From the NCBI GenBank assembly GCA_025677605.1, contig GCA_025677605.1_4110.1: a stretch of 64,000 bases of DNA, one strand, 5' to 3'. Position 1 is the first letter of the stretch. Every line of letters starts with the position of its first letter. Shown piece by piece: positions 3,888 to 46,176 of the stretch. The stretch comes from a phage. Under the pieces are notes generated by a model. That model ran no database searches. It was not told the DNA's origin and worked only from the letters and a program-made list of their open reading frames with translations. The position numbers and the translations under genes are program-made.

Positions 3888-3920
3888 ACTATTATACAGT
3901 ACTGATATACTTTGTCAAGT
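3888..3920 (-). promoter_or_regulatory. sigma70-type early promoter (TTGACA, 16 bp, TATAAT; T5/T4-early-like)
   Basis: rc of 3913-3918 is TTGACA and of 3891-3896 is TATAAT. Confidence 0.65.
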
Positions 3921-4377: not shown

Positions 4378-4410
4378 CTATTATACAGTACTAAGATACT
4401 TTGTCAATAC
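4378..4410 (-). promoter_or_regulatory. sigma70-type early promoter
   Basis: rc TTGACA at 4402-4407, 16 bp spacer, TATAAT at 4380-4385. Confidence 0.65.
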
Positions 4411-7198: not shown

Positions 7199-7286
7199 TT
7201 TTATTTCTCTCTTTTAGTTAGGAGGGGAACCGTTTCCCCTCACTCGATGTAAACTATTATACAGTACTAAGATACTTTGTCAATAC

Positions 7287-7469
7287 TTATTTTTTGGAAA
7301 GTTTACGCATTAATTCTACGCTTTCTTGTGAACGTTTTGCTACCTGGCAATCTGCATGGGCAGTAAACATTTTTGTATAGTCTGACGCTTTGCCACCGAA
7401 CCGAGCGGCACGTTCACGGGCACTTGGAACTAATACAATTTCTTTCTTACAGATAGTGCACTTAGCCAT
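7287..7469 (-). CDS. hypothetical small Cys-containing protein (60 aa)
   Basis: track ORF; CxxC near N-terminus; 5' region near-identical to that of 6875..7198. Confidence 0.55.
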   Translation of the reverse strand: MAKCTICKKEIVLVPSARERAARFGGKASDYTKMFTAHADCQVAKRSQESVELMRKLSKK

Positions 7470-7556
7470 TTTTATTTCTCTCTTTTAGTTAGGAGGGGAA
7501 CCATTCCCCTCACTTGATGTAAACTATTATACAGTACTAAGATACTTTGTCAATAC

Positions 7557-8467: not shown

Positions 8468-8645
8468 TTTAGATAACTCCTGCTTTGCTTAAGTAAACTA
8501 ATACGGCCTGTACTGCCATAATGATTGCAATTACTACTATGAACGGATTCATGTGCATAACTGTTACCCTTATATGGTGGGGAGAAAACTTCTCCCCTTG
8601 ATGTAATTAATTATACAGTACTGTGATACTTTGTCAAATACTTTT

Positions 8646-9463: not shown

Positions 9464-9572
9464 GTGCGATCATTTTGTTTCTCTCTTAGGTTAAGTTAAC
9501 TACTGTTTATAAAACTTATTATACAGTACTATCAAACTATGTCAATATCTTTAATAGTACTGGTAATATATT

Positions 9573-10047: not shown

Positions 10048-10142
10048 TTTGTTTTCTCTCTCTGTTAGTGGGGAGAACTATTCTCCCCTTGATGTAAACT
10101 ATTATACAGTACTATAATCTATTGTCAAACTATTTTTTAATA

Positions 10143-11818: not shown

Positions 11819-11888
11819 TATACTTTCCTCGTTAGGTGTAAGGGGAAAAAGTTTCCCCTCTATGTAAACAATTATACAGTACTGAAAA

Positions 11889-12098
11889 CTAATTGCAAGT
11901 ATTATTTTCTAAAAAATGATTGTATGCTGCATCAACCACTCTTTCGATAACATACGCCAACGGCACGTATCCAACTACATGACTACAATAGAAAGGACTA
12001 CGATTAGAATCATCGTATGCAAATACTTTACCAGGTACGGCATCAATCACATACATATTAACCTTTAAGATGTCGATCTTATCCTGTACAGTAAGCAT
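11889..12098 (-). CDS. hypothetical protein (69 aa)
   Basis: track ORF 11889..12125 begins at a TTG; first ATG at 12096-12098 used. Confidence 0.5.
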   Translation of the reverse strand: MLTVQDKIDILKVNMYVIDAVPGKVFAYDDSNRSPFYCSHVVGYVPLAYVIERVVDAAYNHFLENNTCN

Positions 12099-20044: not shown

Positions 20045-20584
20045 ACACGATCCCCTGATGTAACATTTATTTGATACTATTATATCATAAAAATATGTTC
20101 CATCTCATAAAATAGTACTTGCATTCTGTACGGCATAGCGTATAATTACTACATAAGCCGGAAACAAGGCACTAACCCACAGGGTGCCGAGATCCGCCCA
20201 AAATTCATATAATTTAAAAAGGATACACTCCCGCACCCTAGCAGGTCAAAGCACTTTCTCAGTACTGAATCATAGTACCATAGTACGCCCCAGGATGGCA
20301 AGCAAATTAATTAAAACTTTTTACACTTAGGCTATTGCTTTTATAATTCAGTACTGCTATAATTATTTCATCAAGTCGAGAAAGACTCTAGCCCACCGGG
20401 TGCATAGTTACGCCCAAAATTCAGTACTAGATTATTTTTAAAAATATTCATCCAGGCGGTTGACATACCCCGCTAAAACTGGGATAATGTTTCCAGATTC
20501 AGAAAAATCTAACTCCAGATACTGCGGGGAAACCATCCCCACGCGGTAGGGGAACTATTGGAAAAAACAAAATAAAAATTTTGA

Positions 20585-20765
20585 TTTAGCCGTCTATACA
20601 TCCAGACGTGTAACCATCTAGCCATCTAGCCGTCCAAACGTCTAGCAGTACAGCCATCTAGAAATCTAGCCATCTAGAAATCTAGCCATCCAGCCGTCTA
20701 GAGGGATAGCCATCTTTACTTCCAGACTTCTGGAGGGCTAGACATCTCTACGTCCAAAATCCACC
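20585..20765. repeat. iteron-like direct repeats (core ATCTAGCC / AGCCGTCTA) plus palindrome TCCAGACTTCTGGA
   Basis: at least 8 CTAG-containing repeat units inside the 1.7 kb ORF-free region. Confidence 0.6.
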
Positions 20766-21776
20766 CAGGGTTACTACGCCCAAAATCCGTCAGTACTATA
20801 CCATAGATCTATCTTTAAGAAGGGAGTATTCAGTACTGCCATCATAGTCCTCACTATGTTACCCTAGGAGGATGAAGACTATCATGTAGTACTGAATACT
20901 TTTAAGGGGAATATCATCACATTGCGTGATGCATTATATATTAGATTAATATCAGTACTGCTACCATTCTGTTAATAACAGTACTGTTTATATTACGAAA
21001 AAAGAGGTTGTCAAAGATGAACCACTGCATAGGAGGATTCAATCTCTTCTGTACTGTCTCACGACAGGAGGGTTAAGGCTCTGAATTGTTTGCGGCAATT
21101 CATCACTCTATGTAGAACATTATACAGTACTGAATCATAATGTCAATAGATTTCTTCCATTATTCAGTACTGAAAACATATCTTCTGTATCTCTTCAAAA
21201 CTCATTATATCCCACTAATCCTATATGTCCCAATGTAAATTTCAACTTTCGAAGATCCAACTTTTATTTCATAGGTACTCCAAAATTTTTACGATCCAGA
21301 TTTACGATGGAGTACTAACCAACTTTTTGCTGGAGCCTCAAGGGGTATTCGGAATTTTCCCCAATGGGTATTCGGGATTTTTGACGAAGGGTAAATTGAA
21401 CTTTTTTGAATAGGTGATTGGGAGTTTTCAGTACTGGTCATTCCGTGATTACTTTTGATTGGAAATGATTTGTTTTGCAATTGTTCAGTACTGTAAAATT
21501 ATGTAAATTTTGGGCGACTTCATTTGCCTACTTAGTGGGATATCAGTACTGAATCATTCCTGCACTCTAGTACTCAATACTCTTCACTACAATGATTATA
21601 AATGATTACTTAAATGTTTATATATGATTACTTATGACTACCTATGATTACGGGGTTTAGCCTGGGGAGAATCCTAGTGATCGCATTTGTCCAGGCTGAA
21701 TTTTAACATATGCAACATATGTTAAAGCCTGTATAATGCTTGCACTACGGAGCTTCCCCTAGCTATATGTGTTTAA

Positions 21777-21974
21777 TTACTTCCTATATATAAGCATTAA
21801 GATATAGTAGTACTGATTGTACTGTACATTCTCTAGAACAGGAGAAGGGTCTATTGCTATATTAGTACATTTATTAAATTCATATCGAGTCATTGGTAGA
21901 GGGATTAGAGCGTTAATCCATACTTGTTCATTCTCTTTGAGTTTACTTATATAGAATTCTTTATGGTCATTCAT
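21777..21974 (-). CDS. small paralog family A member (65 aa; MNDHKEFY...LIYRK)
   Basis: track ORF trimmed to family-consistent ATG; N-terminal K[ED][FY]Y and C-terminal Y..L.LI[YF] shared with array. Confidence 0.55.
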   Translation of the reverse strand: MNDHKEFYISKLKENEQVWINALIPLPMTRYEFNKCTNIAIDPSPVLENVQYNQYYYILMLIYRK

Positions 21975-21975
21975 A

Positions 21976-22167
21976 TTAGTGTCTGTATATAAGTAATAGT
22001 AAGAATACGTACTGCACCTGTTCATCTTTAGTATTGAGTACTGTACGTATTGCGTCCTTAAACAAGAATATAGAACTTGGGTCATGGGAATTTAAAGGGA
22101 TTACGGGGACGGCATCTTTGTAGTTCTCTTTAACAAATTGTTTATAGTATTCTTTATAATTATCCAT
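21976..22167 (-). CDS. small paralog family A member (63 aa)
   Basis: MDNYKEYY...LIYRH. Confidence 0.6.
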   Translation of the reverse strand: MDNYKEYYKQFVKENYKDAVPVIPLNSHDPSSIFLFKDAIRTVLNTKDEQVQYVFLLLLIYRH

Positions 22168-22360
22168 AGATATATACTAGCAACATTAGGTTAGAGTATA
22201 GTGCTTTAGTGTCATCTTGTTCTAGAGCTTCAATTGAGTTCGTTGTAGCTTTCCTAAAGCCCATTTTTGCGTATGCACTTTTTGGATTAACGGGGGCGGC
22301 GGCTTCGCACCAGATTCTTTCGGTGCTTGATAGTTTACTCATATAGAATTCTTTATACAT
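22160..22360 (-). CDS. small paralog family A member (66 aa)
   Basis: MYKEFY...LVYIYG; 8-nt overlap with neighbour. Confidence 0.6.
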   Translation of the reverse strand: MYKEFYMSKLSSTERIWCEAAAPVNPKSAYAKMGFRKATTNSIEALEQDDTKALYSNLMLLVYIYG

Positions 22361-22361
22361 A

Positions 22362-22544
22362 TTAGTACCTGAATATTAGCATTGTTATGTAGTACAGCAT
22401 ATATGGATTGTCATCGTATATTAGGGTGTACTTAGTACATTGTTGGAACATTATCTTTGCGTGATCTTTTATTCCTATTGGTTCTGTTGGTACAAGGTGT
22501 TGGAGATGCATTGGGAGATGATCTTTATAAAATTCTTTATACAT
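22362..22544 (-). CDS. small paralog family A member (60 aa)
   Basis: MYKEFY...LIFRY. Confidence 0.6.
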   Translation of the reverse strand: MYKEFYKDHLPMHLQHLVPTEPIGIKDHAKIMFQQCTKYTLIYDDNPYMLYYITMLIFRY

Positions 22545-22552
22545 ATTAGTCC

Positions 22553-22741
22553 TTAGTACTGGAACGCGAGATACAGAGTGTGGTACAGTTGCACTTGAGA
22601 ATTGTTTTCATTAAGTACTTGTTCAGTACATGTGCGGAAGTAATCAGCTTCGTATATACAGTTAATATCGCGAGGTTCATCTTCTAATAGATTGCCTTGT
22701 AGAAACTTTGGTAGTTCTTTTATGTAGTATTCTTTATGCAT
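22553..22741 (-). CDS. small paralog family A member (62 aa)
   Basis: MHKEYY...LAFQY. Confidence 0.6.
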   Translation of the reverse strand: MHKEYYIKELPKFLQGNLLEDEPRDINCIYEADYFRTCTEQVLNENNSQVQLYHTLYLAFQY

Positions 22742-22750
22742 ATGATTTCC

Positions 22751-22939
22751 TTAGTACACGAATGCGAGGTACAGGGTGTGGTACAGTACTCGATGATAGC
22801 TATCATAATCTTGTATACATGCTTTAGTGCACATAGTAAAGTACTTTTTATCGTTTTGTGCATTGATACCGCGAGGTTTATCTAATAGATTAGTTATGAG
22901 GTACATTGGGAAATATTTTGTGTAGTATTCTTTGTGCAT
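22751..22939 (-). CDS. small paralog family A member (62 aa)
   Basis: MHKEYY...LAFVY. Confidence 0.6.
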   Translation of the reverse strand: MHKEYYTKYFPMYLITNLLDKPRGINAQNDKKYFTMCTKACIQDYDSYHRVLYHTLYLAFVY

Positions 22940-22940
22940 A

Positions 22941-23123
22941 TTAGTACCTGTATATAAGTGTTAGTACATTGTACAAGTTATAGATATCATCTTCATTTAT
23001 TGCAGATTCTGTTTGATATCGGTAGAATATAGTTTGGCTTTTATCTTTGAAATCTACAGGTTTTTGGGGAATAAGTTTTTGGAGATCTATTGTAAGTTTA
23101 CTTACGTAGTATTCTTTATACAT
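22941..23123 (-). CDS. small paralog family A member (60 aa)
   Basis: track ORF 22941..23186 trimmed to MYKEYY start; ends LIYRY. Confidence 0.55.
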   Translation of the reverse strand: MYKEYYVSKLTIDLQKLIPQKPVDFKDKSQTIFYRYQTESAINEDDIYNLYNVLTLIYRY

Positions 23124-23787
23124 AGTTTGTAATATAAGTAATGAGGTGATGAATTTTCTTATCAGTACTGATAAGTTCCTGTACATGTTTTGTTAGTTTG
23201 TACGCGTTTTTGTACAGTACAGGATTATCGATTACAGTACTGTACATGAATAGATCTTCTTCCTGTAGTTCTTTGTGTTCTAGTTCTTTGAGGAATTCTA
23301 CAATTGATTTAGTTTCTTCTGTACGTTGCTGTTGGAAGAAATGCATGTTATCGTGTATTTCTTCTGAACCCATACTGTATATGCCACCCATTTGGAATTG
23401 TGCTGTATTGACATCGTGGGAGGTGTTACAATTCCCGAAGAAGTATGTATTCCCGAAGTATAGCATTAAAGTGCACGGGGTATTATCCAACTGCATATGG
23501 ATGATGAAGGATGCGTTCTTTAGTACCTTCATGCTCGTATTAGTACTCAATACTTTTAAATCAGTATTATAGATATTCATATAATGAACAGCTATATTAT
23601 TTTTCTTCATGTACAATTCAAGGTTCTTTGATACGTTAACTCCATTTGTACTGGTTTTTTTACTTTTCTTTAGGTTCTTTAGTACATTAGGGTGATAAGT
23701 ATATGCATTAGTGGTAGATTCAGCCTGGATTGATTGCAGGTACTTGAAGTGCTGTAGGTATCGTTTACTTTGTGGATTGAGTTTCAT
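23116..23787 (-). CDS. hypothetical protein (223 aa) embedded in the small-paralog array
   Basis: track ORF; AAGGAG RBS; not a family member. Confidence 0.6.
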   Translation of the reverse strand: MKLNPQSKRYLQHFKYLQSIQAESTTNAYTYHPNVLKNLKKSKKTSTNGVNVSKNLELYMKKNNIAVHYMNIYNTDLKVLSTNTSMKVLKNASFIIHMQLDNTPCTLMLYFGNTYFFGNCNTSHDVNTAQFQMGGIYSMGSEEIHDNMHFFQQQRTEETKSIVEFLKELEHKELQEEDLFMYSTVIDNPVLYKNAYKLTKHVQELISTDKKIHHLITYITNYV

Positions 23788-23815
23788 TTTAGTCTCCTTA
23801 AATTGCTTATACTGC

Positions 23816-23995
23816 TTATACTGTTACAAGCGAGATTATTTCTCTGTATGGGTTATTTTTTGTCAGGACGTGATGAATGCAGCTATTGAGATTAATAGTT
23901 TTAGTACTTTTTGTTCCTATGTTGTAGTACTTCACGAAGGTGTCGTACATGAAACGATCCTTAGTACTGAGATTATCGGTGTAGTACTCTAGCAT
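23816..23995 (-). CDS. small paralog family B member (59 aa; MLEYY...)
   Basis: hand-translated; below track length cut-off. Confidence 0.45.
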   Translation of the reverse strand: MLEYYTDNLSTKDRFMYDTFVKYYNIGTKSTKTINLNSCIHHVLTKNNPYREIISLVTV

Positions 23996-24005
23996 AGTTT
24001 ATTCC

Positions 24006-24185
24006 TTATATAGAGATTAGTTTCAGTACTTCTCTGTACGTGTACTTTTCGTTTTGTGCTTCTACTGTACATGATAGCAGGTATCGTTTTTTATCTCTTT
24101 TGTTCCCGACTGTGTAGTACCTTTGGAATTGATTATAGATGTATCTATCTTTGTTCTGGAGTTTATAGATATAGAATTCTTGCAT
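24006..24185 (-). CDS. small paralog family B member (59 aa; MQEFY...EVLKLISI)
   Basis: hand-translated. Confidence 0.45.
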   Translation of the reverse strand: MQEFYIYKLQNKDRYIYNQFQRYYTVGNKRDKKRYLLSCTVEAQNEKYTYREVLKLISI

Positions 24186-24193
24186 AGTGTACC

Positions 24194-24373
24194 TTAGATA
24201 GAAATTAGTTTCAGTACTTCATTATATGTGAACATTTCGTCCTGTGCCAATTTAGTACAATTCAGGAGTAATTTTCTTTGTTTTCTTTGCGAACTACAAT
24301 GATAGCTCATTGAGAAGTAATTGAAGCCGTATCTATCTTCTGGGTAAATTACGCTTAGGTAGTATTCTAGCAT
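24194..24373 (-). CDS. small paralog family B member (59 aa; MLEYY...EVLKLISI)
   Basis: hand-translated. Confidence 0.45.
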   Translation of the reverse strand: MLEYYLSVIYPEDRYGFNYFSMSYHCSSQRKQRKLLLNCTKLAQDEMFTYNEVLKLISI

Positions 24374-24381
24374 TGTATTCT

Positions 24382-24567
24382 CTACATTTCAATAAGTTTA
24401 AGTACTGCTCTGTACGTGTACTTAGTTGTTAGTACTTCTTTTATAGCAGTACAGAAGTAATGTTGTTTGTCTCTTATACTGCCGCGTTTGTAGTACCATA
24501 CATGGGAGTTGTGGCTGTACTTGTCTCTGTCGGATAGTTGTTGGTAATAGTAGCTTATATGATTCAT
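24382..24567 (-). CDS. small paralog family B member (61 aa)
   Basis: track ORF; ends AVLKLIEM. Confidence 0.55.
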   Translation of the reverse strand: MNHISYYYQQLSDRDKYSHNSHVWYYKRGSIRDKQHYFCTAIKEVLTTKYTYRAVLKLIEM

Positions 24568-24776
24568 TGTAATGTAATTAGCCTTACTATATTAAAGTAC
24601 TCGGTCCCTGTTGCACCTTGTAGAATATTACGCACGACATGTTTGTGGTGCAGGATGATTGCTGAAGGTGCGGTTCTTTTAAGTTTTTTAAAAGTACTGA
24701 ATTCTTGTTTAAGTATGAACTGTACATCTTTAGGGAGAATATCTATGTAGTACTGATGAATGTTTGTAATTTTCAT
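24564..24776 (-). CDS. small paralog array member (70 aa)
   Basis: track ORF; 4-nt overlap with neighbour. Confidence 0.55.
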   Translation of the reverse strand: MKITNIHQYYIDILPKDVQFILKQEFSTFKKLKRTAPSAIILHHKHVVRNILQGATGTEYFNIVRLITLQ

Positions 24777-24787
24777 ATAGTACCTTT

Positions 24788-24979
24788 TTAGAACTTAAAG
24801 ATGAGGTACATGATAGATAGGTACTTAGTTGAAGTAAATGGTTGTTCTATTGCATAACGTGTCTCCAACCTGAAATCGTAATTATAAAAGGGACTATTCT
24901 TTCTCATAGGTTCTTGAGGGAATGAGTCCCTGTATTGTTCGTGTAGTTTACTACAGTAGAAATCTTTATGATTATTCAT
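24788..24979 (-). CDS. small paralog family A member (63 aa)
   Basis: MNNHKDFY...LIFKF. Confidence 0.6.
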   Translation of the reverse strand: MNNHKDFYCSKLHEQYRDSFPQEPMRKNSPFYNYDFRLETRYAIEQPFTSTKYLSIMYLIFKF

Positions 24980-25181
24980 AGAAGTATATTAGTCCGATTA
25001 AACTTGAGTACTGCATATTTTTGTTATTGCATTCAATAGCTTCTAGAGTACTACGTATACAATTATTAAAGCAATTCCTTGTGTTGGGTGTGTCTATACT
25101 TACAGGTGGTACACTCCTTAGAAACATTTGTTCTTCGTTGCTGAGGTATTTGGTGTAGAATTCTTTATGTTCAGTATTCAT
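24972..25181 (-). CDS. small paralog family A member (69 aa)
   Basis: MNTEHKEFY...LIYFYE. Confidence 0.6.
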   Translation of the reverse strand: MNTEHKEFYTKYLSNEEQMFLRSVPPVSIDTPNTRNCFNNCIRSTLEAIECNNKNMQYSSLIGLIYFYE

Positions 25182-25182
25182 A

Positions 25183-25383
25183 TTAGTACTCCAATAGTAG
25201 TGTTAAGATGAAATAGTACTGCATACTTTCGTTACCTTCTATTGCATTCCAGATGAGGTTATTCCTGTTTGAGTTCAGGAGTCCTGGTATGCGTTTAGCA
25301 TTTTTCAGTACTGTTTTTTGGTTCTTCATTGCATCTTGTAGCCCAGGGTGCAATGCATTGATGTAGTACGGGTTAATGTTCAT
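25183..25383 (-). CDS. small paralog array member (66 aa)
   Basis: MNINPYY...LLLEY. Confidence 0.55.
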   Translation of the reverse strand: MNINPYYINALHPGLQDAMKNQKTVLKNAKRIPGLLNSNRNNLIWNAIEGNESMQYYFILTLLLEY

Positions 25384-25607
25384 ATAGCCACTAGTACTAA
25401 GATGTTTAAAAATTGTTTACGGGTATCCCCTAATAGTGTATTGTGTACAATGCTCACAGTAAGGGTATTCAGTGCACTACCAAGCATAAGGTTACACCCT
25501 GTGCTCTTATGATTTTTTAGTTCAATTAGCCACGATTGGTCAGAGAGAACCTTTGCGTACTCTAGTTCATTTAGTTCATTGATGTAGTACTTTAGAGCAT
25601 ATGGCAT
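25380..25607 (-). CDS. small paralog array member (75 aa), first gene of leftward operon
   Basis: AAGGAG RBS; promoter TTGACA-17-TACTAT immediately upstream. Confidence 0.55.
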   Translation of the reverse strand: MPYALKYYINELNELEYAKVLSDQSWLIELKNHKSTGCNLMLGSALNTLTVSIVHNTLLGDTRKQFLNILVLVAI

Positions 25608-25709
25608 GTACGATTCTCCTTAGATTTCTCATATAGTACATCAGTACTGAAAGGGTGTCAAGGGTTTTCTTTTTTGATTAAATATAGTATAATGAATAAA
25701 GGAGGAATT
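25608..25709. promoter_or_regulatory. divergent promoter region between the two paralog arrays
   Basis: minus-strand TTGACA-17-TACTAT and plus-strand ATATAGTATAAT + AAAGGAGGA. Confidence 0.55.
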
Positions 25710-26606
25710 ATGTTACCTTTTGTTAGAATGTTTAAGTACGGGAATGTAGGTCCATTACCTGGCCCAAATGGTGGAGTACGAACACCATTTACTACAACAC
25801 CCGTACCTTCAGCACGAAATAACTTTGGTTATACGTATGATGCGGAAAGTAATATTGCTTATATATTTGGTGGTATACAGAATGCGGTGCAGACGGATAA
25901 TCAGTTATGGAGTTTTAATTTAACTACAAGAACGTGGTCACAATTAGCCAATGCACCTGTATCTACATTTGGTAGTGCGTTATGTGCTTATCAGGGAAAA
26001 ATATATTTGTTTGGTGGTTCAGGTAATAGTAGTAATAATTTTTATGTATATAATATAAGTACAAATACATGGATTCTGAACACTAACAGTATTGGGAAGC
26101 CTAGTCAACTGGCGTATAGTAAGATGATTACTGCTGGGGATAAGATATATTTGTGGGGTTCGCCTACTAATAATTCGTTATACAGTTATACTCCAAGTAC
26201 TAATACATGGTCATCATTAGGTACAAGTGATGGAACAAATAACAATGGAGGTGGTGATATGTGTACGGATGGTACTTACATATATATTACTGGTCAAGGT
26301 ACTAGTACTGCACAAAAATATCATATACAAAGTGCGGTGTGGTCTAACATAGCACCAGTTGGTGGTAATAACCCTAGTAAAATATGTTACAGTACATATG
26401 ATAAAAATATATATGCAGTGTCGTATGGTGCATTAAATTTATTGAGATACGATGCAGAAGAAGACATATGGATTCCCTTAGCGGTTAATACTACTTTGAG
26501 TAGTAGTACTGGTGCGTTATTTGGTTCTAAGAATAGTGCTGAGATATTTTATGTACTTGGTTTTGACAATGGCACTCGTGTTAATACGCAGTATGTTTTT
26601 AAATAA
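25710..26606 (+). CDS. MLPFVRM-leader beta-propeller paralog 1 (298 aa; Kelch-like GG/Y/W repeats)
   Basis: start set at ATG after AAAGGAGGA; repeated IYLFGG / IYLWGS blades. Confidence 0.6.
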   Translation: MLPFVRMFKYGNVGPLPGPNGGVRTPFTTTPVPSARNNFGYTYDAESNIAYIFGGIQNAVQTDNQLWSFNLTTRTWSQLANAPVSTFGSALCAYQGKIYLFGGSGNSSNNFYVYNISTNTWILNTNSIGKPSQLAYSKMITAGDKIYLWGSPTNNSLYSYTPSTNTWSSLGTSDGTNNNGGGDMCTDGTYIYITGQGTSTAQKYHIQSAVWSNIAPVGGNNPSKICYSTYDKNIYAVSYGALNLLRYDAEEDIWIPLAVNTTLSSSTGALFGSKNSAEIFYVLGFDNGTRVNTQYVFK

Positions 26607-26618
26607 TTTGGAGGAATT

Positions 26619-27761
26619 ATGTTACCTTTTGTTAGAATGTTAGAGTACGGGAATATTGCACCAGAACCAAAACCTCTATTTAAAAATAGATTACAAGCAA
26701 ATTATAATACTCGTTTTTATTTGCATGTTAATGGTGACTTGTACTGGTATGGTTCATCTTCATTTGGACAAGGTGGTAATGGTTCATTACAATCATCCAC
26801 CGTATGGACCCGTGTGAATAATAATATTGAACGTTACTGGGGTGGTGTTCTTGGTTCCATTGCCATTAAGAATGATGGAACTATTTGGTTCACAGGTGCT
26901 AGTATAGTAATGCCACAAATCGGAACAAATACAAATGGGGTTTGGATTGATGTAACCCAGTACTTCACTGATTTTGGTGTCAGTGCTGATGATATTGATG
27001 GTATTGCTGTTGGGCAGAATTTGCGTGTATTTTTAAAAAATGGAAAATGGTTCTACTGTGGTGCTGGCGAAGGTGGTGTATTTGGTAACGCGTCAACAGC
27101 TAATGTCACATCGTTCAGATACAGCACTATAGAAAATGTTAAAAGTTATGGCTGTTCTTTGCTCAGTACTGGGTTAGTACTTGATGATGGCTCCTATTGG
27201 TATGCAGGAAATACTGTTGCTCCTGGTAGTACAAAAACATCAAATATATTAAGTTTTACAAAAGACAATACGATCACCAATGCTATACAAGCTGTAAATA
27301 CATACCGTACTTCATATATATTTCTTAATGATGGTTCAGTGAAGGTTGCTTCACCAAATGCATATGGTCAAGCTGGTGTAGGTACAGTATCAGCAGTACC
27401 AATGAGTACATTAATTCCCAATTTATCATTCCAAGGTGAAATAGAGTTGGTGGGTGGTTTATCCAACAACGAAGGGAATGGATGTGTTGTTAAAAATAAT
27501 AATAAGTTATATACTTGTGGTCGAAATACCTATGGTGCATGTGGTGTTAATCAAACATCCGAAAATATACTAACTTTCACCGAAATGGTTCTTGATGCAT
27601 TAGAAGGAAGACGAATTTCAGGCTTCGTAATTGATAATTTCTATTCAATGATAATTGATGAAAATAACAATTTGTATATGAGTGGTTTACCTGAACTTGG
27701 AAATGTTCCAGCCGTTAGAGTACCAACCAGAGTTCCTGATTCACTTCTACCGTGGAAATAA
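26619..27761 (+). CDS. MLPFVRM-leader beta-propeller paralog 2 (380 aa; RCC1-like repeats)
   Basis: GxNxYGQ/AxG repeats; no cassette before it, probably co-transcribed with paralog 1. Confidence 0.6.
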   Translation: MLPFVRMLEYGNIAPEPKPLFKNRLQANYNTRFYLHVNGDLYWYGSSSFGQGGNGSLQSSTVWTRVNNNIERYWGGVLGSIAIKNDGTIWFTGASIVMPQIGTNTNGVWIDVTQYFTDFGVSADDIDGIAVGQNLRVFLKNGKWFYCGAGEGGVFGNASTANVTSFRYSTIENVKSYGCSLLSTGLVLDDGSYWYAGNTVAPGSTKTSNILSFTKDNTITNAIQAVNTYRTSYIFLNDGSVKVASPNAYGQAGVGTVSAVPMSTLIPNLSFQGEIELVGGLSNNEGNGCVVKNNNKLYTCGRNTYGACGVNQTSENILTFTEMVLDALEGRRISGFVIDNFYSMIIDENNNLYMSGLPELGNVPAVRVPTRVPDSLLPWK

Positions 27762-27768
27762 TATAATA

Positions 27769-27833
27769 GCCAGTACTCTGTACTGGCTTTTCTTATTTGT
27801 ATTAAATATAGTATAATGAATAAAGGAGGAATT
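27769..27833 (+). promoter_or_regulatory. terminator-promoter-SD cassette
   Basis: hairpin GCCAGTACTCTGTACTGGC + T-run, then ATATAGTATAAT and AAAGGAGGA. Confidence 0.6.
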
Positions 27834-38417: not shown

Positions 38418-38969
38418 TTATCCACCAGAACTCGTGTGAGCGGCACTTCTGGCTACCGAAGACCCAAACCCATTGCGGGTGATTGTGGTCGTTGTAGGAG
38501 GTTTTGGAGCTAATGCGGAACTTGATACAGTACGTGTTGTACCTTTTGCAGTACTGCTACCGTAGGAGTTACCACCAGCATCATAGTAGTTCCCTTTAGA
38601 GTTGTATAGTGGTTGACTAGCAAACCCATTACCACTACTATGGAACCCGCTCATGATTGGAATCCAAAAGAATCCCGAACTATGTTGTTGACATTGATTA
38701 CCAAAATCGCTTGAGCAATCACTCTGTGAACTATATTTTGGTGCTACCTTTTCCGATTCAGTGAGTGCTTTCTTATAATCATCATCACATTGTACAGGAT
38801 TACTTCCTGACTTTTTACATTGGTCTGCGTTCTGATATACAGAAATATCTTCAGAGCGTTCACATCCAGTCATAATAAAAGTACTACTAAGTGCCAAGGC
38901 AATCGCTCCGTACTTAATAGTTTTTACTTTACGAAATCGTTCACGAATGACATTAGAACTTCGTTTCAT
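38418..38969 (-). CDS. putative lipoprotein (183 aa)
   Basis: signal peptide with lipobox IMTGC; Gly/Ser-rich C-terminus; last gene of operon. Confidence 0.6.
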   Translation of the reverse strand: MKRSSNVIRERFRKVKTIKYGAIALALSSTFIMTGCERSEDISVYQNADQCKKSGSNPVQCDDDYKKALTESEKVAPKYSSQSDCSSDFGNQCQQHSSGFFWIPIMSGFHSSGNGFASQPLYNSKGNYYDAGGNSYGSSTAKGTTRTVSSSALAPKPPTTTTITRNGFGSSVARSAAHTSSGG

Positions 38970-39352
38970 TATTTGTCAATCCCCATTCGTTTTGAACGCA
39001 TATCTACGTGAATTGATTCCAGCTTCTTAACACCACGATATAGCCAATAGAACGCAGTAATAATAAGAGCACCACACGGAATCAGCACACTAAAGAATGT
39101 TACGAATCCATAGAACGTTGCCCCATCATCACCATTCATGCCACCAAATATTACTTCAATAACAACAGAAGCTACGGCGAACATATAATATGTCATACCC
39201 ATAACAACTGCTATTTGTCCAGCACTACTTTGTTCAGCACGACGAACCCAATTGAATACTGGATTAATACAGAAGTAGTATAGAAGTAACCAGACTGAAC
39301 CTAAAGCGAATACTGCAATTTCAAAAATACAAAAGTAATCACGGTAAGTCAT
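38969..39352 (-). CDS. small polytopic membrane protein, paralog family member (127 aa)
   Basis: three hydrophobic segments; 1-nt overlaps with neighbours. Confidence 0.6.
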   Translation of the reverse strand: MTYRDYFCIFEIAVFALGSVWLLLYYFCINPVFNWVRRAEQSSAGQIAVVMGMTYYMFAVASVVIEVIFGGMNGDDGATFYGFVTFFSVLIPCGALIITAFYWLYRGVKKLESIHVDMRSKRMGIDK

Positions 39353-39705
39353 TATTTCATCCTCTCACCTAAACGTTTGTGTAGTTTACATAATTTGTCA
39401 AAAATGGTTAACGACATACATACAGTAAATCCAATACAAGCTAGTGTTAGACACATTAAATCTGCCACCATACCAGCTACAAGCAATGCACGAGCTTCAA
39501 GTAATAACCCAAATAGCATTGCAAAATAACCGAAATAGTATGCAACTGAAAAGAGTGTTATAGCATTACCAATATAGTACACAATATTATCATACCAAGT
39601 ACTGAATGGTTTCATGTGAAAGAATTTCATCACAAGTAGTACAGATAACATAAAGAATACCAGTGTACATAACATGAATATAACTTGACCAGCAGGAGAA
39701 AACAT
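39352..39705 (-). CDS. small polytopic membrane protein, paralog family member (117 aa)
   Basis: hydrophobic; FFHMKPF loop motif; basic C-terminus. Confidence 0.6.
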   Translation of the reverse strand: MFSPAGQVIFMLCTLVFFMLSVLLVMKFFHMKPFSTWYDNIVYYIGNAITLFSVAYYFGYFAMLFGLLLEARALLVAGMVADLMCLTLACIGFTVCMSLTIFDKLCKLHKRLGERMK

Positions 39706-39707
39706 AA

Positions 39708-40091
39708 TTAACCTCGTTTCTTACGTTTAATGTTATTGTGAATTTCATAAAAGAAAGGAACAATAGCAGTACAGATTAAATTATACATAAGAATAATCAT
39801 GAACAATAACCCGAATATTGAAGAAAACACTAATCCAATAATGCACAGTACTGGTTCACCAATTGAAGTGATTCCAATCCCGAATACGTATACAATCCAT
39901 GTGAAGATAGTGGTTACTAAGCAAATGATATATCCAACATGGAAGAAGCACTTAGATTCGTAGTCGGATTCAATATCCTCATACACATCTTCGACGAACT
40001 TTACACAAAAGAACTTTCCAATGTATATTAATGCACCTATTGTTAGACATGCACTTAGGATATTAAGAATAACATATATTGTTGTGTACAT
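39708..40091 (-). CDS. small polytopic membrane protein, paralog family member (127 aa)
   Basis: hydrophobic; KFFCVKF loop; basic C-terminus KRKKRG. Confidence 0.6.
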   Translation of the reverse strand: MYTTIYVILNILSACLTIGALIYIGKFFCVKFVEDVYEDIESDYESKCFFHVGYIICLVTTIFTWIVYVFGIGITSIGEPVLCIIGLVFSSIFGLLFMIILMYNLICTAIVPFFYEIHNNIKRKKRG

Positions 40092-40411
40092 TATACCCTC
40101 TTATCTTTTTGTTTACGATGGAAATTTGATACCAAAGAACATAACTTTCCAATATAACTACAGAATGCTGCGAATACACACAGGACTGCAAATAATGTAC
40201 ACAATGACATTTCCAAATCATTATCAGGTGGATTGAATATAAGCAGTACTACCCATAATGTACTAAGCAATGTAAAAGCTACATTACCAGCCCATGCATT
40301 TTTACACTGCTTTGCATAGAAGTCAAATGGTTTTAGTGCAAAGAGAAAACCAATCCAGCAAACCCAAAAGTAGAATGCACTTACTGTGAAAAGAATCAAT
40401 TCAATCTTCAT
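40091..40411 (-). CDS. small polytopic membrane protein, paralog family member (106 aa)
   Basis: hydrophobic; basic C-terminus. Confidence 0.6.
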   Translation of the reverse strand: MKIELILFTVSAFYFWVCWIGFLFALKPFDFYAKQCKNAWAGNVAFTLLSTLWVVLLIFNPPDNDLEMSLCTLFAVLCVFAAFCSYIGKLCSLVSNFHRKQKDKRV

Positions 40412-40412
40412 A

Positions 40413-40748
40413 TTATTTCCTGTGATCTGGGATAGAGTTTCGTAGTTTAACTACAAATGGATACAAAAGCACACCAATGTAAACAATAGTCGATATCCAG
40501 TAAAAACCCAAGGAAATGATTTCACCATTAGAACGTTTACCAGTACTGATAATTCCGTAATGGATGAATGGCATCACTGACGATGACCAAAACCAGCAGT
40601 GAAGTTTAAAACTCATCAGATGATTATCGATGAATTCACTGATTGGACGTTTAAAGAACCACATCAAGAAATAAAACCCAGCGGAAATGATGTAGTAAAT
40701 TGTACTTACTTTCAAGTACCACGGTAGTAAACTGATAAAGTACTCCAT
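40413..40748 (-). CDS. small polytopic membrane protein, paralog family member (111 aa)
   Basis: track ORF 40413..40850 trimmed to ATG at 40746-40748 (1-nt overlap with upstream stop); WFFKRPI loop. Confidence 0.55.
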   Translation of the reverse strand: MEYFISLLPWYLKVSTIYYIISAGFYFLMWFFKRPISEFIDNHLMSFKLHCWFWSSSVMPFIHYGIISTGKRSNGEIISLGFYWISTIVYIGVLLYPFVVKLRNSIPDHRK

Positions 40749-41101
40749 TATGCCTCCGGTATTTTGTTGCGTGCAAATAACATTTTTTTCCACACAATAT
40801 TCGATAGAATTACAATTAGTGTTGGAATACATATCATAACAAAGGTACATAGCATAAAGTTAAGATTATCACCGTGACCTAATCCTATGACTGTAAGAAC
40901 TGCACCCATAGTATACGTGATTGAGGTTGCAATTACAACACTTTCATAGTACTCTGAATTATTAATCTTGTAGTAAATTGGACGTTTGAAATACCATCCA
41001 ATGAAGTTTAGAACCATCAAAAACGGATATAAGATAATGAGTACATAGTTCAGTGTACTAGCAATATCACTGGTTGTCAACCATTTAATAACCTCTTGCA
41101 T
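40748..41101 (-). CDS. small polytopic membrane protein, paralog family member (117 aa)
   Basis: track ORF 40748..41206 trimmed to ATG at 41099-41101; WYFKRPI loop. Confidence 0.55.
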   Translation of the reverse strand: MQEVIKWLTTSDIASTLNYVLIILYPFLMVLNFIGWYFKRPIYYKINNSEYYESVVIATSITYTMGAVLTVIGLGHGDNLNFMLCTFVMICIPTLIVILSNIVWKKMLFARNKIPEA

Positions 41102-41433
41102 TAGAAATCTCCCACTATACGTTTCCTGTACAAATACAGACCATACACACCCATCATTACAAGCCACATAATAGTAGTTCCGAATACAATGTATTGTGTA
41201 ATACACGGAAGGTGTGGTTCAAACAAATATATCAAGTGCACTAGAATTCCCAGTACTATTCCTACACCCTGGACGATTGTATACAATATCATATAGTCTG
41301 GGTACAATTTCTCAAGAAGACGACCTTTCTTAAAGAACCACAAGATTCCGATGAGAGCGTGGTAGTATACGAATAGACACATGTATACTAATGTAATTTT
41401 AATCATAACCTCAGTTGAAAATAAATTAATCAT
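41101..41433 (-). CDS. small polytopic membrane protein, paralog family member (110 aa)
   Basis: WFFKKGR loop; basic C-terminus. Confidence 0.6.
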   Translation of the reverse strand: MINLFSTEVMIKITLVYMCLFVYYHALIGILWFFKKGRLLEKLYPDYMILYTIVQGVGIVLGILVHLIYLFEPHLPCITQYIVFGTTIMWLVMMGVYGLYLYRKRIVGDF

Positions 41434-42504: not shown

Positions 42505-43632
42505 TTATACAATCACTTCACCAAAAATACCATTGATATCACGTTCAATGATGTATTCTCCTTCATGTTCAGCTAAGAATTTTTTAATGGCTTCATTAAC
42601 TTTAGGACGATGGATATTATTGAATGTTTCTGTGCAACCATCTCCCTTTTCATAATAACCTTTATTATATAGTTTACCACATAACGCAATTGTATGTATT
42701 ATTATTTCCAATTCTCTAGCAAGTTTCCCACCCACATTCTTATGAAATAAAATGGAAATTTCATTACTCCAAAAATTATCTACTTTATATATTTTTTTAT
42801 AAGATAAGTTTTGTGGACTTAATCTTGCTTTAATAGTTTTGTTTGTAATACCAGCTTTATCCGATTTTTTTGCATAATCATTGTGAATATAAAATCTTCC
42901 AGGCTTGGAAGTTTTAAATCCTTTTACTGCACACGTGGGACAACCAGAACCAGACAGATGTGAATTTGGTGTTTGTTGAAATTCACCATGTTCTTTGCAT
43001 ATTATAATAGAGGTTACTTGGTTGTTAATGTAGTCATATAAAGAATAATCATACTTATTTCCGTGTATAAGATGTGATTTTTTTATAAATTCACCTAAAG
43101 TTTGTTTCGTGCATTCTTGACAACCAATTTTACCAGTAGCTAAGTCAGTAATTGTGGGTTTTTTTATATCACCACAATCATTACATACTACTTCAATTTT
43201 AGTTCTACTAGGAAGTGTAGAGTTAAACGAAGTTATTCCACTATAAGTAAATTTATCATAACCATATTTTTTGTTGATGACACTAATATGATTAAGGCTG
43301 TAATATGGAATATTAATAATATTGTAAAAAATCTTCCCATTAAATCCCTGCCTAATAAAATTCGTGCAGGTGGCTCCAATAACTAACATACCATCGTTAT
43401 TCACTACAAGTTTGGTTTTTGATTTAGATATATAATCTTGTGATCTATTGATATAGAATCCAAGAACTCTTGGATCATTTATTTCACCCATAATACTAAT
43501 AGGATCTTGAGCAATGTTGGATTTTTTTACAAAATTTATATCTTCGGCTTTCATCCACTCAAAAAGCATTCCATGCTCTTCATAAAAATAAACTTTTTCA
43601 CCATCTTCATTAAAATAGTACTGTTCAAACAT
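42505..43632 (-). CDS. zinc-ribbon protein with T5orf172/GIY-YIG-like C-terminal region (375 aa)
   Basis: two CxxC...CxxC pairs; GRFYIH...KAGITN...KARL resembles T5orf172 motif; by eye only. Confidence 0.4.
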   Translation of the reverse strand: MFEQYYFNEDGEKVYFYEEHGMLFEWMKAEDINFVKKSNIAQDPISIMGEINDPRVLGFYINRSQDYISKSKTKLVVNNDGMLVIGATCTNFIRQGFNGKIFYNIINIPYYSLNHISVINKKYGYDKFTYSGITSFNSTLPSRTKIEVVCNDCGDIKKPTITDLATGKIGCQECTKQTLGEFIKKSHLIHGNKYDYSLYDYINNQVTSIIICKEHGEFQQTPNSHLSGSGCPTCAVKGFKTSKPGRFYIHNDYAKKSDKAGITNKTIKARLSPQNLSYKKIYKVDNFWSNEISILFHKNVGGKLARELEIIIHTIALCGKLYNKGYYEKGDGCTETFNNIHRPKVNEAIKKFLAEHEGEYIIERDINGIFGEVIV

Positions 43633-46091: not shown

Positions 46092-46176
46092 GGTAGTTCC
46101 TCGATTGAAGGGATGAGAAGTTCATCCCCTTGATAAACATTATACAGTACTAGTTGAGTTTGTCAAATACTTTTCA

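What the first reader, a model, noticed from the sequence alone, without database searches (positions are those of the whole stretch)
21777..25607. Leftward array of 16 tiny paralogous genes diverging from the propeller array
Sixteen back-to-back minus-strand genes of 58-75 aa, many with 4-8 nt start/stop overlaps, fall into two sequence subfamilies: one with N-terminal (M)xK(E/D)(F/Y)Y and C-terminal Y..L.LI(Y/F)(R/K)(Y/F), one with M(L/Q)EYY...EVLKLISI. A single 223-aa gene is embedded. The array is driven from the promoter hub it shares with the propeller array. Such amplification of a small protein suggests diversifying selection, for example anti-defence proteins or partners/chaperones of the variable propeller proteins.
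Basis: seen in the sequence. Interest (0 to 1): 0.8.

Follow-up and report, generated by a model that had tools for sequence, protein, structure and literature searches.

The report
Tandem family of tiny phage proteins
A giant E. coli phage carries one tightly packed operon of sixteen related genes for tiny four-helix proteins with a conserved core and highly variable surfaces; the family is real, occurs only in this phage genus, has no known function, and is most likely a set of intracellular binding proteins made early in infection.

Summary
Window 21777-25607 (minus strand) carries 16 genes of 59-75 aa plus one unrelated 223-aa gene, with junctions of -8 to +28 nt.

The window is an Asteriusvirus jumbo coliphage (PBECO4/121Q group, 96% identical to phage A4). 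The small proteins form one superfamily with three subfamilies, not two: A with 9 members (phrog_11711, unknown function), B with 4 and C with 3. Composition-matched controls rule out an AT-rich artefact.

AlphaFold2 gives a confident four-helix fold (pLDDT 88.7) with no structural or sequence relative. An exhaustive search of 1.84 billion proteins found only 29 representatives, all Asteriusvirus-like.

Orthologues evolve under purifying selection (dN/dS about 0.1-0.6). Paralogues are old (at most 58% identical), so this is not a recent amplification. The repertoire still differs between phages: 14-22 copies, and 43 orthogroups in ten genomes.

A sigma70-like promoter and RBS, conserved in 12 genomes, head the operon. 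The neighbouring RCC1-like propeller proteins are virion components in two published proteomes; the small proteins are not.

Best reading, by inference: early, non-structural binders with one scaffold and variable surfaces, serving host takeover or anti-defence. A role as partners of the propeller proteins is not excluded, because copy numbers co-vary.

The parts
25656..25661 (-). -35 hexamer TTGACA of the array promoter
   Evidence: Promoter scan; sequence; invariant in 12 Asteriusvirus genomes. An A-rich tract lies upstream.
25633..25638 (-). -10 hexamer TACTAT, 17-nt spacer. The spacer contains the palindrome CAGTACTG at 25642-25649.
   Evidence: It reads TACTAT or TACAAT in all 12 genomes.
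25615..25622 (-). Shine-Dalgarno TAAGGAGA of the first gene, g17
   Evidence: the GGAGAA core is invariant in 12 genomes.
25380..25607 (-). g17, 75 aa, subfamily C. It is the first gene of the operon in every genome examined.
25183..25383 (-). g16, 66 aa, subfamily C
   Evidence: It has no orthologue of at least 60% identity in nine other genomes; it is present in A4.
24972..25181 (-). g15, 69 aa, subfamily A
   Evidence: phrog_11711.
24788..24979 (-). g14, 63 aa, subfamily A
24564..24776 (-). g13, 70 aa, subfamily C
24382..24567 (-). g12, 61 aa, subfamily B
24194..24373 (-). g11, 59 aa, subfamily B
   Evidence: It is specific to the window/A4 lineage at the 60% identity level.
24006..24185 (-). 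g10, 59 aa, subfamily B
23816..23995 (-). g09, 59 aa, subfamily B
23116..23787 (-). g08, 223 aa, embedded gene unrelated to the small family (phrog_29152, unknown function). It always lies between the B block and the distal A block.
   Evidence: The AF2 model is unusable (pLDDT 44). Synteny.
22941..23123 (-). g07, 60 aa, subfamily A
22751..22939 (-). g06, 62 aa, subfamily A
22553..22741 (-). g05, 62 aa, subfamily A. This is the protein that was modelled: four helices, pLDDT 88.7.
22362..22544 (-). g04, 60 aa, subfamily A
22160..22360 (-). g03, 66 aa, subfamily A
21976..22167 (-). g02, 63 aa, subfamily A
21777..21974 (-). g01, 65 aa, subfamily A, last gene of the operon
25674..25712 (+). Promoter and RBS cassette of the first propeller gene: TTGATTAAATATAGTATAATGAATAAAGGAGGAATTATG. 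It lies back to back with the array promoter and is repeated before five further propeller genes.

Best explanation
The locus is an Asteriusvirus-specific multigene family arranged as one operon. Sixteen translationally coupled genes encode soluble proteins of about 7 kDa with a four-helix fold. They belong to one superfamily with three subfamilies, in the transcription order C C A A C - B B B B - [223 aa] - A x7.

The operon is read leftward from a conserved sigma70-type promoter. That promoter lies back to back with the promoter cassette of the first RCC1-like virion-protein gene.

All members keep an aromatic and aliphatic core: K-E-(F/Y)-Y, L10, P23, F35, C38-T39, I/L43, and Y..L.LI(F/Y).Y. 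Nearly every other position is free to vary, and net charge runs from -5 to +6.

The paralogues are old and each is kept by purifying selection. Phages differ in which cassettes they carry, probably through unequal recombination between the short conserved gene ends.

Inferred function: non-structural intracellular binders made from the start of infection by host RNA polymerase. Each paralogue would use the common scaffold to bind a different host (or phage) macromolecule, giving an accessory arsenal for host takeover or anti-defence.

Shown: gene structure, paralogy, fold prediction, restriction to the genus, selection regime, promoter conservation, and absence from two virion protein lists.

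Inferred: early timing, binder role and targets.
For: - Coding and operon structure: the ORFs tile 97.8% of the region against 3.8% in shuffles. Junctions are at most 28 nt and five overlap. Ten of the 17 genes have an SD-like sequence, and those without one overlap or abut the upstream gene.
- One superfamily: BLAST clusters, cross-hitting HMMs, hhalign P of 2e-5 to 3e-4, and z = 7-10 over shuffled controls.
- Fold: pLDDT 88.7 and pTM 0.72, four helices.
- Conserved core and hypervariable surface: helix 1 has 1.1 bits of entropy and core positions fall below about 1.5 bits. Helices 2-4 and the loop average 2.2-2.9 bits, and most of their non-core positions are near or above 3 bits. pI ranges from 4.7 to 10 and no member has a transmembrane segment.
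- Purifying selection: dN/dS is 0.08-0.6 at dS of 0.2-0.9.
- Old paralogues with a variable repertoire: maximum within-genome identity is 58%; there are 43 orthogroups in 10 genomes, 13 near-core and 20 singletons; copy number is 14-22.
- Promoter: TTGACA-17-TAC(T/A)AT plus RBS is conserved in 12 genomes although g17 itself diverges to 70-76%.
- Early-region context: the array is co-oriented with, and directly upstream of, a 20-kb block of small genes. That block carries 15 of the window's 17 consensus promoters of the form TTGACA-N8-YAGTACTGTATAAT. AGTACT density in the array (7.0 per kb) matches that block (5.9) rather than the propeller or late DNA (about 3). In the related phage CBB, RpoD-like promoters in a region of short ORFs were interpreted as early host-takeover genes (PMC5259590).
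- Non-structural: the phAPEC6 virion proteome lists eight RCC1-like proteins but no array protein. gp545c is a family member and is absent from the list. The JP4 virion proteome contains MLPF-type propellers and none of the family's signature peptides.
Against: - There are no expression data for any Asteriusvirus, so early timing rests on promoter resemblance alone. The array promoter is also a variant of the canonical early class: CAGTACTG is shifted by 3 nt and the -10 hexamer is TACTAT.
- Conserved linkage to the propeller array and the co-variation of copy numbers (r = 0.84) could instead point to a propeller-related role.
- Proteins of 7 kDa are easily missed in shotgun virion proteomics.
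Confidence: 0.4

Rival explanations
1. The small proteins are partners of the RCC1-like virion (propeller) proteins. They could be paralogue-specific folding or assembly chaperones, attachment matchmakers, or intracellular inhibitors for the hair-like fibre proteins. They would act in the cell and would not be packaged.
For: - The divergent adjacency is conserved in every genome examined.
- Both expansions occur only in Asteriusvirus. According to PMC7247149, GAP32 has a single RCC1-like gene, and the small family is undetectable outside the genus.
- Copy numbers co-vary over ten genomes: r = 0.84, p = 0.002. The partial correlation controlling for genome size is r = 0.62-0.69, p = 0.04-0.07.
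- Small all-helical non-virion assembly chaperones exist in T4 (gp57A; from my own knowledge).
Against: - There is no 1:1 stoichiometry: 14-22 small genes against 7-14 propellers, and E9.1 has 21 against 11 while WPEC3 has 19 against 14.
- The correlation is not corrected for phylogeny or for physical linkage. Both counts also scale with genome size.
- The two arrays use different promoter types. Each propeller gene is its own transcription unit, whereas the small genes share one sigma70-like promoter.
- Chaperones of phage fibres are usually encoded directly downstream of their client (general knowledge).
- No PHROG chaperone family matches the small proteins.
Confidence: 0.2
2. They regulate the phage's own programme. 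They would be small modulators of host RNA polymerase, of the phage sigma factor or of the replication machinery, with the paralogues tuning different steps.
For: - Small helical early phage proteins that bind RNA polymerase or sigma factors are common (T4 AsiA, T7 Gp2; from my own knowledge).
- The phage encodes its own sigma-factor homologue (window 59840-60802, phrog_351).
- The operon sits next to a gene-free, promoter-rich and repeat-rich stretch.
Against: - Core regulators are normally single-copy and conserved. Here about half of the orthogroups are accessory or singleton, and surfaces are hypervariable.
- The fold shows no helix-turn-helix and no similarity to AsiA-like proteins.
Confidence: 0.12
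3. They are packaged internal proteins injected with the DNA, like the polymorphic T4 IP loci. In that case the conserved N-terminus would act as a capsid-targeting leader.
For: - The conserved N-terminal M-x-K-E-(F/Y)-Y-x-x-x-L superficially resembles the T4 capsid-targeting sequence (from my own knowledge).
- The locus is polymorphic, with a variable number of cassettes.
Against: - The proteins are absent from two virion proteomes that detected proteins as small as 4.7 kDa.
- The C-terminus is equally conserved, and the N-terminal helix is part of the confidently predicted fold.
- From my own reading of the 16 N-terminal sequences, only a few members carry a (L/I)-x-E motif near the N-terminus; this was not counted systematically.
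Confidence: 0.04
4. The array is largely dispensable evolutionary baggage: old duplicates in a hyperplastic region with little present function.
For: - Presence and absence vary between close relatives.
- A few orthologue pairs have dN/dS near 1: g01 against A4 gives 1.09, and g02 against 121Q gives 0.95.
Against: - Most orthologues have dN/dS of 0.1-0.5.
- The reading frames are intact across the ten genomes counted, apart from two partial-coverage hits (one each in slurp01 and JNE01); the frameshifted, unverified CMSTMSU record was left out.
- The promoter and RBS are conserved.
- Thirteen orthogroups are kept in 8-9 of 10 genomes.
Confidence: 0.08

Closest known systems
PHROG phrog_11711 (unknown function), with the GenBank 'hypothetical proteins' 121Q gp249-265, A4_246-261 and phAPEC6 gp545c
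   Same: The nine subfamily-A genes match phrog_11711 end to end, with E-values from 1e-7 to 1e-27. The whole array is annotated, gene by gene, as hypothetical proteins in published Asteriusvirus genomes.
   Different: The PHROG covers only subfamily A. B and C match no PHROG. None of the papers I searched or read describes the link between the three subfamilies, the fold, the operon structure or the repertoire dynamics.
Lineage-specific expansions of small proteins in jumbo phages, for example about 35 zinc-ribbon copies in Bacillus phage G (Iyer et al. 2021, PMC7824862)
   Same: Both are a many-copy family of one small domain confined to one jumbo-phage lineage, with function guessed from context.
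   Different: The fold differs: a four-helix bundle with no metal-binding motif. Here the copies form one contiguous operon and are very divergent (at most 58% identity).
Early host-takeover gene clusters of large virulent phages (the CBB early region, PMC5259590; the SPO1 host-takeover module and T4 early genes, from my own knowledge)
   Same: These are clusters of very small, phage-specific genes behind sigma70-like promoters. The proteins are non-structural and vary between relatives.
   Different: Those clusters consist mostly of unrelated genes. Here sixteen neighbours share one scaffold.
Anti-CRISPR and anti-defence loci
   Same: They encode small, fast-diverging accessory proteins with no wider homologues, clustered behind a strong early promoter.
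   Different: No aca-type HTH regulator is recognisable in the operon. There is no match to any known anti-defence protein, and paralogy among neighbours is not typical of acr loci. No inhibition has been shown.
Polymorphic internal-protein (IP) loci of T4-like phages
   Same: Both are a hyperplastic locus of small proteins with a conserved N-terminal motif and otherwise variable sequence.
   Different: IPs are abundant virion components. These proteins are absent from two virion proteomes, and both of their termini belong to the fold.
Multigene families and genomic accordions of large eukaryotic DNA viruses (ASFV MGFs, poxvirus K3L amplification; from my own knowledge)
   Same: Tandem paralogue arrays whose copy content differs between isolates and which are thought to serve host interaction.
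   Different: There are no recent near-identical copies here, so this is not an active accordion.

Membership tests
phrog_11711 | Significant full-length match to the PHROG profile | tested here: met
   Nine of the 16 small proteins (all of subfamily A) match, with a best E-value of 1.7e-27. The seven B and C members do not match, so the array as a whole is wider than this PHROG.
Single superfamily (A+B+C) | Colinear profile-profile similarity above composition-matched controls | tested here: met
   hhalign global P-values are 3.8e-5 (A-B), 2.1e-5 (A-C) and 3e-4 (B-C). Real scores of 22-29 compare with 3-5 +/- 2.4 for column-shuffled profiles, 0 of 40 reaching the real score.
Any Pfam family | Match at or near the gathering threshold | tested here: not met
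   None of the 16 members has a hit at E <= 0.01. The best stray hits are E = 0.02-0.15 and far below the cut-offs.
Operon (single transcription unit with translational coupling) | Same strand, junctions of a few nucleotides, one upstream promoter, no internal terminator | tested here: met
   Junctions are -8 to +28 nt. A conserved promoter lies at 25661-25633. No canonical early promoter lies inside the array, and no terminator-like site lies on its strand. Transcription itself was not measured.
Recent tandem amplification (genomic accordion) | Near-identical tandem copies; copy number differing between close isolates through gain or loss of the same unit | tested here: not met
   The highest within-genome paralogue identity is 58% across 10 genomes and 182 members. 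At 70% identity no orthogroup has two copies in one genome.
Family under pervasive diversifying selection | dN/dS above 1 between orthologues | tested here: not met
   Nei-Gojobori dN/dS is 0.08-0.6 for pairs with dS >= 0.2. Only low-count pairs approach 1. Site-specific tests were not run.
Anti-CRISPR / anti-defence locus | Homology to a known anti-defence protein, or an associated aca-type HTH regulator | tested here: not met
   No Pfam HTH or other domain occurs in any of the 17 proteins. There is no PDB or BFVD relative apart from the family itself. PADLOC, which holds defence proteins, gave no hit. No dedicated anti-defence library was available.
Anti-CRISPR / anti-defence locus | Demonstrated inhibition of a defence system | not testable with these tools
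   This needs plaque assays on defence-carrying hosts.
T4-type internal proteins | Presence in the virion | tested here: not met
   The phAPEC6 virion table (62 proteins, smallest 4.66 kDa) lists no array protein although gp545c is a family member. The JP4 dataset lacks the family's signature peptides. Caveat: small proteins can escape shotgun mass spectrometry.
Phage tail-fibre assembly chaperones (gp57A/gp38-like) | Sequence membership in a chaperone family | tested here: not met
   Scans of PHROGs, a library meant to cover phage protein families, returned only phrog_11711 (unknown function).
Phage tail-fibre assembly chaperones (gp57A/gp38-like) | Physical or functional dependence of the fibre or propeller proteins on the small protein | not testable with these tools
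   The only evidence is indirect co-variation of copy numbers.

The most novel reading that the evidence does not exclude
The array is a natural 'binder library'. One minimal four-helix scaffold has diversified into dozens of surface variants (at least 43 orthogroups in ten phages). Each variant would neutralise a different host defence or host factor. The phage would then carry a paralogous, cassette-exchangeable anti-defence arsenal expressed as one early operon.
Probability: 0.22. Interest if true: 0.75.

Novelty: new member of a known kind. Interest (0 to 1): 0.45.

Why it matters
Jumbo phages of the PBECO4/121Q group are being developed for therapy, yet more than 80% of their genes are uncharacterised. 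This work turns 16 anonymous 'hypothetical proteins' per genome into one defined family.

The family has a confident fold, a conserved core and hypervariable surfaces. It sits in a single operon behind a conserved promoter, and its cassette repertoire differs between isolates. That makes it a compact, testable candidate for host-range or anti-defence determinants, and a possible source of small natural binding scaffolds.

The work also clarifies the neighbouring locus. Published proteomes show the RCC1-like 'chromosome condensation' paralogues to be virion proteins, each with its own promoter and terminator cassette. This bears on the unexplained hair-like fibres of these phages.

If the small proteins turn out to be ordinary dispensable early genes, the finding is of local interest only.

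Tried and rejected
- Homology searches found nothing outside Asteriusvirus. These were Pfam, PHROGs, PADLOC, PDB sequence profiles, two word-indexed searches of 5.8 billion proteins, and one exhaustive HMMER search of 1.84 billion representatives.
- The 223-aa protein gave an unusable AF2 model (pLDDT 44), so I ran no fold search on it. It is not related to the small family (hhalign probability 0.9%).
- I rejected the compositional-artefact explanation (synonymous variation in the motifs).
- I rejected recent amplification or a genomic accordion.
- I rejected the idea that one shared promoter hub drives both arrays, because every propeller gene has its own cassette.
- No tRNA or Rfam RNA occurs in or beside the array.
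- The generic promoter and terminator scan was not enriched over shuffles. Only the position and conservation of the head promoter make it credible.
- I did not attempt an orthogroup-level co-occurrence test between small genes and propellers. Ten linked, phylogenetically related genomes cannot separate function from linkage.
- I found no paper describing this family and no Asteriusvirus transcriptome.

Full report
**Identity of the window.** Megablast of 21000-27000 against GenBank phages hits only Asteriusvirus jumbo myoviruses: 33 Escherichia and 4 Salmonella records of the PBECO4/121Q group. The best is Escherichia phage A4 at 96.4%. The same layout recurs in every genome inspected. An array of RCC1-like ('regulator of chromosome condensation') genes is transcribed one way. 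An array of tiny 'hypothetical' genes is transcribed the other way. A stretch of about 2 kb without annotated genes follows, and then more small genes.

**Observation check.** On the minus strand, 17 ORFs tile 97.8% of 21777-25607. Shuffles give 0.68 ORFs of at least 58 aa and 3.8% coverage, with a maximum of 4 ORFs. Sixteen ORFs are 59-75 aa and one is 223 aa. Junctions are 1, -8, 1, 8, 9, 1, -8, 28, 10, 8, 8, -4, 11, -8, 1 and -4 nt. Ten genes have a recognisable Shine-Dalgarno sequence, and those without one overlap or abut the upstream gene. This is the pattern of a translationally coupled operon.

**Paralogy.** All-against-all BLASTP gives three clusters:
- A: g01-g07, g14, g15
- B: g09-g12
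- C: g13, g16, g17

Profile-profile alignments are colinear from end to end, with P = 3.8e-5 (A-B), 2.1e-5 (A-C) and 3e-4 (B-C). These scores exceed column-shuffled, composition-identical controls by z = 7-10, with 0 of 40 reaching the real score. The signature residues are encoded with synonymous variation. The shared motifs are therefore homology, not AT-rich composition. The 223-aa gene is unrelated to the family.

**What the proteins look like.** AlphaFold2 on g05, using a 40-sequence family alignment, gives pLDDT 88.7 and pTM 0.72. The model has four helices at residues 3-7, 12-20, 29-44 and 48-60. In a 73-sequence subfamily-A alignment a spaced set of positions is conserved: K3, E4, Y/F5, Y6, L10, P23, F35, C38, T39, I/L43, Y/L52, Y53, L56, L58, I59, F/Y60 and Y62. 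Most other positions are near or above 3 bits of entropy, close to random. Net charge ranges from -5 to +6 and pI from 4.7 to 10. No member has a transmembrane segment. The picture is a fixed hydrophobic core carrying hypervariable surfaces.

**Relatives and distribution.**
- All nine A members match phrog_11711 (unknown function). B and C match no PHROG, and no member matches Pfam or PADLOC.
- A profile search of PDB sequences finds nothing.
- Foldseek finds nothing in the PDB, and only the family itself in BFVD.
- tblastn finds the family only in 35-36 Asteriusvirus records.
- An exhaustive HMMER search of 1.84 billion representative proteins returns 29 sequences, all 41-69 aa and all of the same type.
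- Two word-indexed searches add nothing outside the genus and no fusion to another domain.
- The 223-aa protein (phrog_29152) is likewise confined to the genus, and its model is unusable (pLDDT 44).

**Evolution.** Nei-Gojobori dN/dS between the window genes and their orthologues in six other phages is 0.08-0.6 wherever dS is at least 0.2. Only a few low-count pairs approach 1. Each gene is therefore a real gene under purifying selection.

I collected 182 members from ten genomes. No two paralogues in the same genome exceed 58% identity. At 60% identity the members form 43 orthogroups: 13 present in 8-9 genomes, 10 intermediate and 20 singletons. Four window genes (g03, g07, g11, g16) have no counterpart in the other nine genomes.

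Copy number runs from 14 to 22, always in the order C C (A) A (C) B... [about 220 aa] A.... The family is thus an old, diversified set of cassettes whose membership turns over. It is not a recent amplification, and it shows no sign of pervasive positive selection between orthologues. The conserved 12-17 nt at the gene ends are a plausible substrate for unequal recombination; this is inference.

**Expression signals.** The spacer between the two start codons is 102 bp (25608-25709). On the minus strand it holds an A-tract, then TTGACA (25661-25656), a 17-nt spacer containing CAGTACTG, then TACTAT (25638-25633). TAAGGAGA follows 8 nt before the ATG. All of these elements are conserved in 12 genomes, although g17 itself diverges to 70-76%.

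The window holds 17 near-consensus promoters of the form TTGACA-N8-YAGTACTGTATAAT, all on the minus strand. Fifteen lie in the small-gene block at 3.8-21.5 kb, just downstream of the array. The array promoter is a variant of this class. AGTACT density in the array (7.0 per kb) resembles that block (5.9) and not the propeller or late DNA (about 3). In the related phage CBB, RpoD-like promoters concentrated in a region of short ORFs were interpreted as the early host-takeover region (PMC5259590). No Asteriusvirus transcriptome exists, so early timing remains an inference.

**The neighbours.** Six of the nine propeller genes in the window, the first included, are preceded by their own copy of TTGATTAAATATAGTATAATGAATAAAGGAGGAAnTATG. 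In most of the internal copies that I printed, a hairpin and T-run precede the cassette. The G17 annotators independently placed terminators between these genes. The propeller genes are therefore separate transcription units, and the 'hub' serves the small operon and at most the first propeller gene.

Published virion proteomes list eight RCC1-like proteins in phAPEC6 (PMC7247149, Table 1) and MLPF-type propellers in JP4 (PMC12648861, supplement). Neither lists a small-array protein, although phAPEC6 gp545c belongs to the family and a 4.66-kDa protein was detected there. The small proteins are therefore most likely non-structural.

**Testing the 'partner of propellers' idea.** Over ten genomes, small-gene and propeller copy numbers correlate (Pearson r = 0.84, p = 0.002). 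Both also scale with genome size. The partial correlation is 0.62-0.69 with p = 0.04-0.07. This is not corrected for phylogeny or for the physical linkage of the two arrays, and there is no fixed ratio between the counts. The idea stays open but unproven.

The best-supported model (confidence about 0.4 for the functional part) is an early, non-structural operon of small helical binders. They share one scaffold and present different surfaces, forming an accessory host-takeover or anti-defence repertoire that differs from phage to phage.

The rivals are:
- propeller-specific helpers (about 0.2)
- regulators of the phage programme (about 0.12)
- dispensable baggage (about 0.08)
- packaged internal proteins (about 0.04)

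In kind this is a new, uncharacterised member of the known class of lineage-specific small-gene expansions in jumbo phages. Its interest is moderate, and it would rise sharply if specific targets were found.

Noticed in passing
whole window, e.g. 25642-25649, 21125-21132, 3897-3904: The palindrome CAGTACTG occurs 56 times in 64 kb against 0.7 expected. AGTACT occurs 273 times against 21.6 expected. CAGTACTGA with at most one mismatch occurs 215 times against 15 in shuffles. The motif lies in coding and non-coding DNA alike. Density is highest in the early-type regions (6-9 per kb) and about 3 per kb elsewhere. The cause is unknown; it could be a promoter element, a protein-binding site or a modification site.
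   Followed up: partly
minus strand: 3891-3918, 4380-4407, 7256-7283, 7526-7553, 8610-8637, 9518-9545, 10101-10128, 11871-11898, 21119-21146, 46139-46166, 57365-57392 and others: There are 17 copies of a near-consensus promoter, TTGACA-N8-(C/T)AGTACTGTATAAT, against 0.01 expected. All are on the minus strand. Several are followed by a leader hairpin GGGGAGAA...TTCTCCCC. This is probably the phage's early promoter class.
   Followed up: partly
window 20050-21776: This gene-free stretch is left unannotated in most of the related records examined, and carries only a few short ORF calls in the others. It holds about 20 tandem copies of an 8-nt unit (ATCTAGCC type) at 20584-20743. It also holds roughly a dozen CAGTACTG palindromes, two strong promoter-like sites, and a 42-nt repeat (20166-20207 and 20382-20423). 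No tRNA or Rfam family is present. It may be an origin or iteron region, or it may encode unannotated small RNAs.
   Followed up: partly
window 25674-38387 (+): Nine RCC1-like propeller genes lie here. Five of them, and a tenth frame upstream of the 29118 ORF, begin with a near-identical N-terminus (MLPFVRMxxYGN). Six are preceded by a duplicated terminator, promoter and RBS cassette. Published proteomes (phAPEC6, JP4) show such proteins in virions. The 'DNA condensation' annotation is therefore doubtful, and they may be the hair-like fibres of these phages.
   Followed up: partly
window 38969-41433 (-): A second tandem block flanks the far end of the propeller array. It has seven back-to-back or overlapping genes for hydrophobic proteins of 106-152 aa that look like multi-pass membrane proteins. 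BLASTP detects no similarity among them. Equivalent runs of 5-9 genes occur in PBECO4, JNE01, E9.1 and G17.
   Followed up: no
L012 (JNE01) 7333-7542 (+): A 69-aa ORF at the far end of JNE01's propeller array gives a partial subfamily-A-like HMM hit. It may be a stray family member outside the main array.
   Followed up: no
window 59840-60802 (-), 57962-58774 (-), 42505-43632 (-): These are a phage-encoded sigma-factor homologue (phrog_351) and two HNH-type endonuclease genes. The sigma factor may read the -35-less promoter cassette of the propeller genes.
   Followed up: no
window 21690-21730 (-), just downstream of g01: A perfect 10-bp AT-rich inverted repeat (TTAACATATG ttg CATATGTTAA) lies directly after the last array gene. 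It is not a canonical terminator, and its role is unknown.
   Followed up: no
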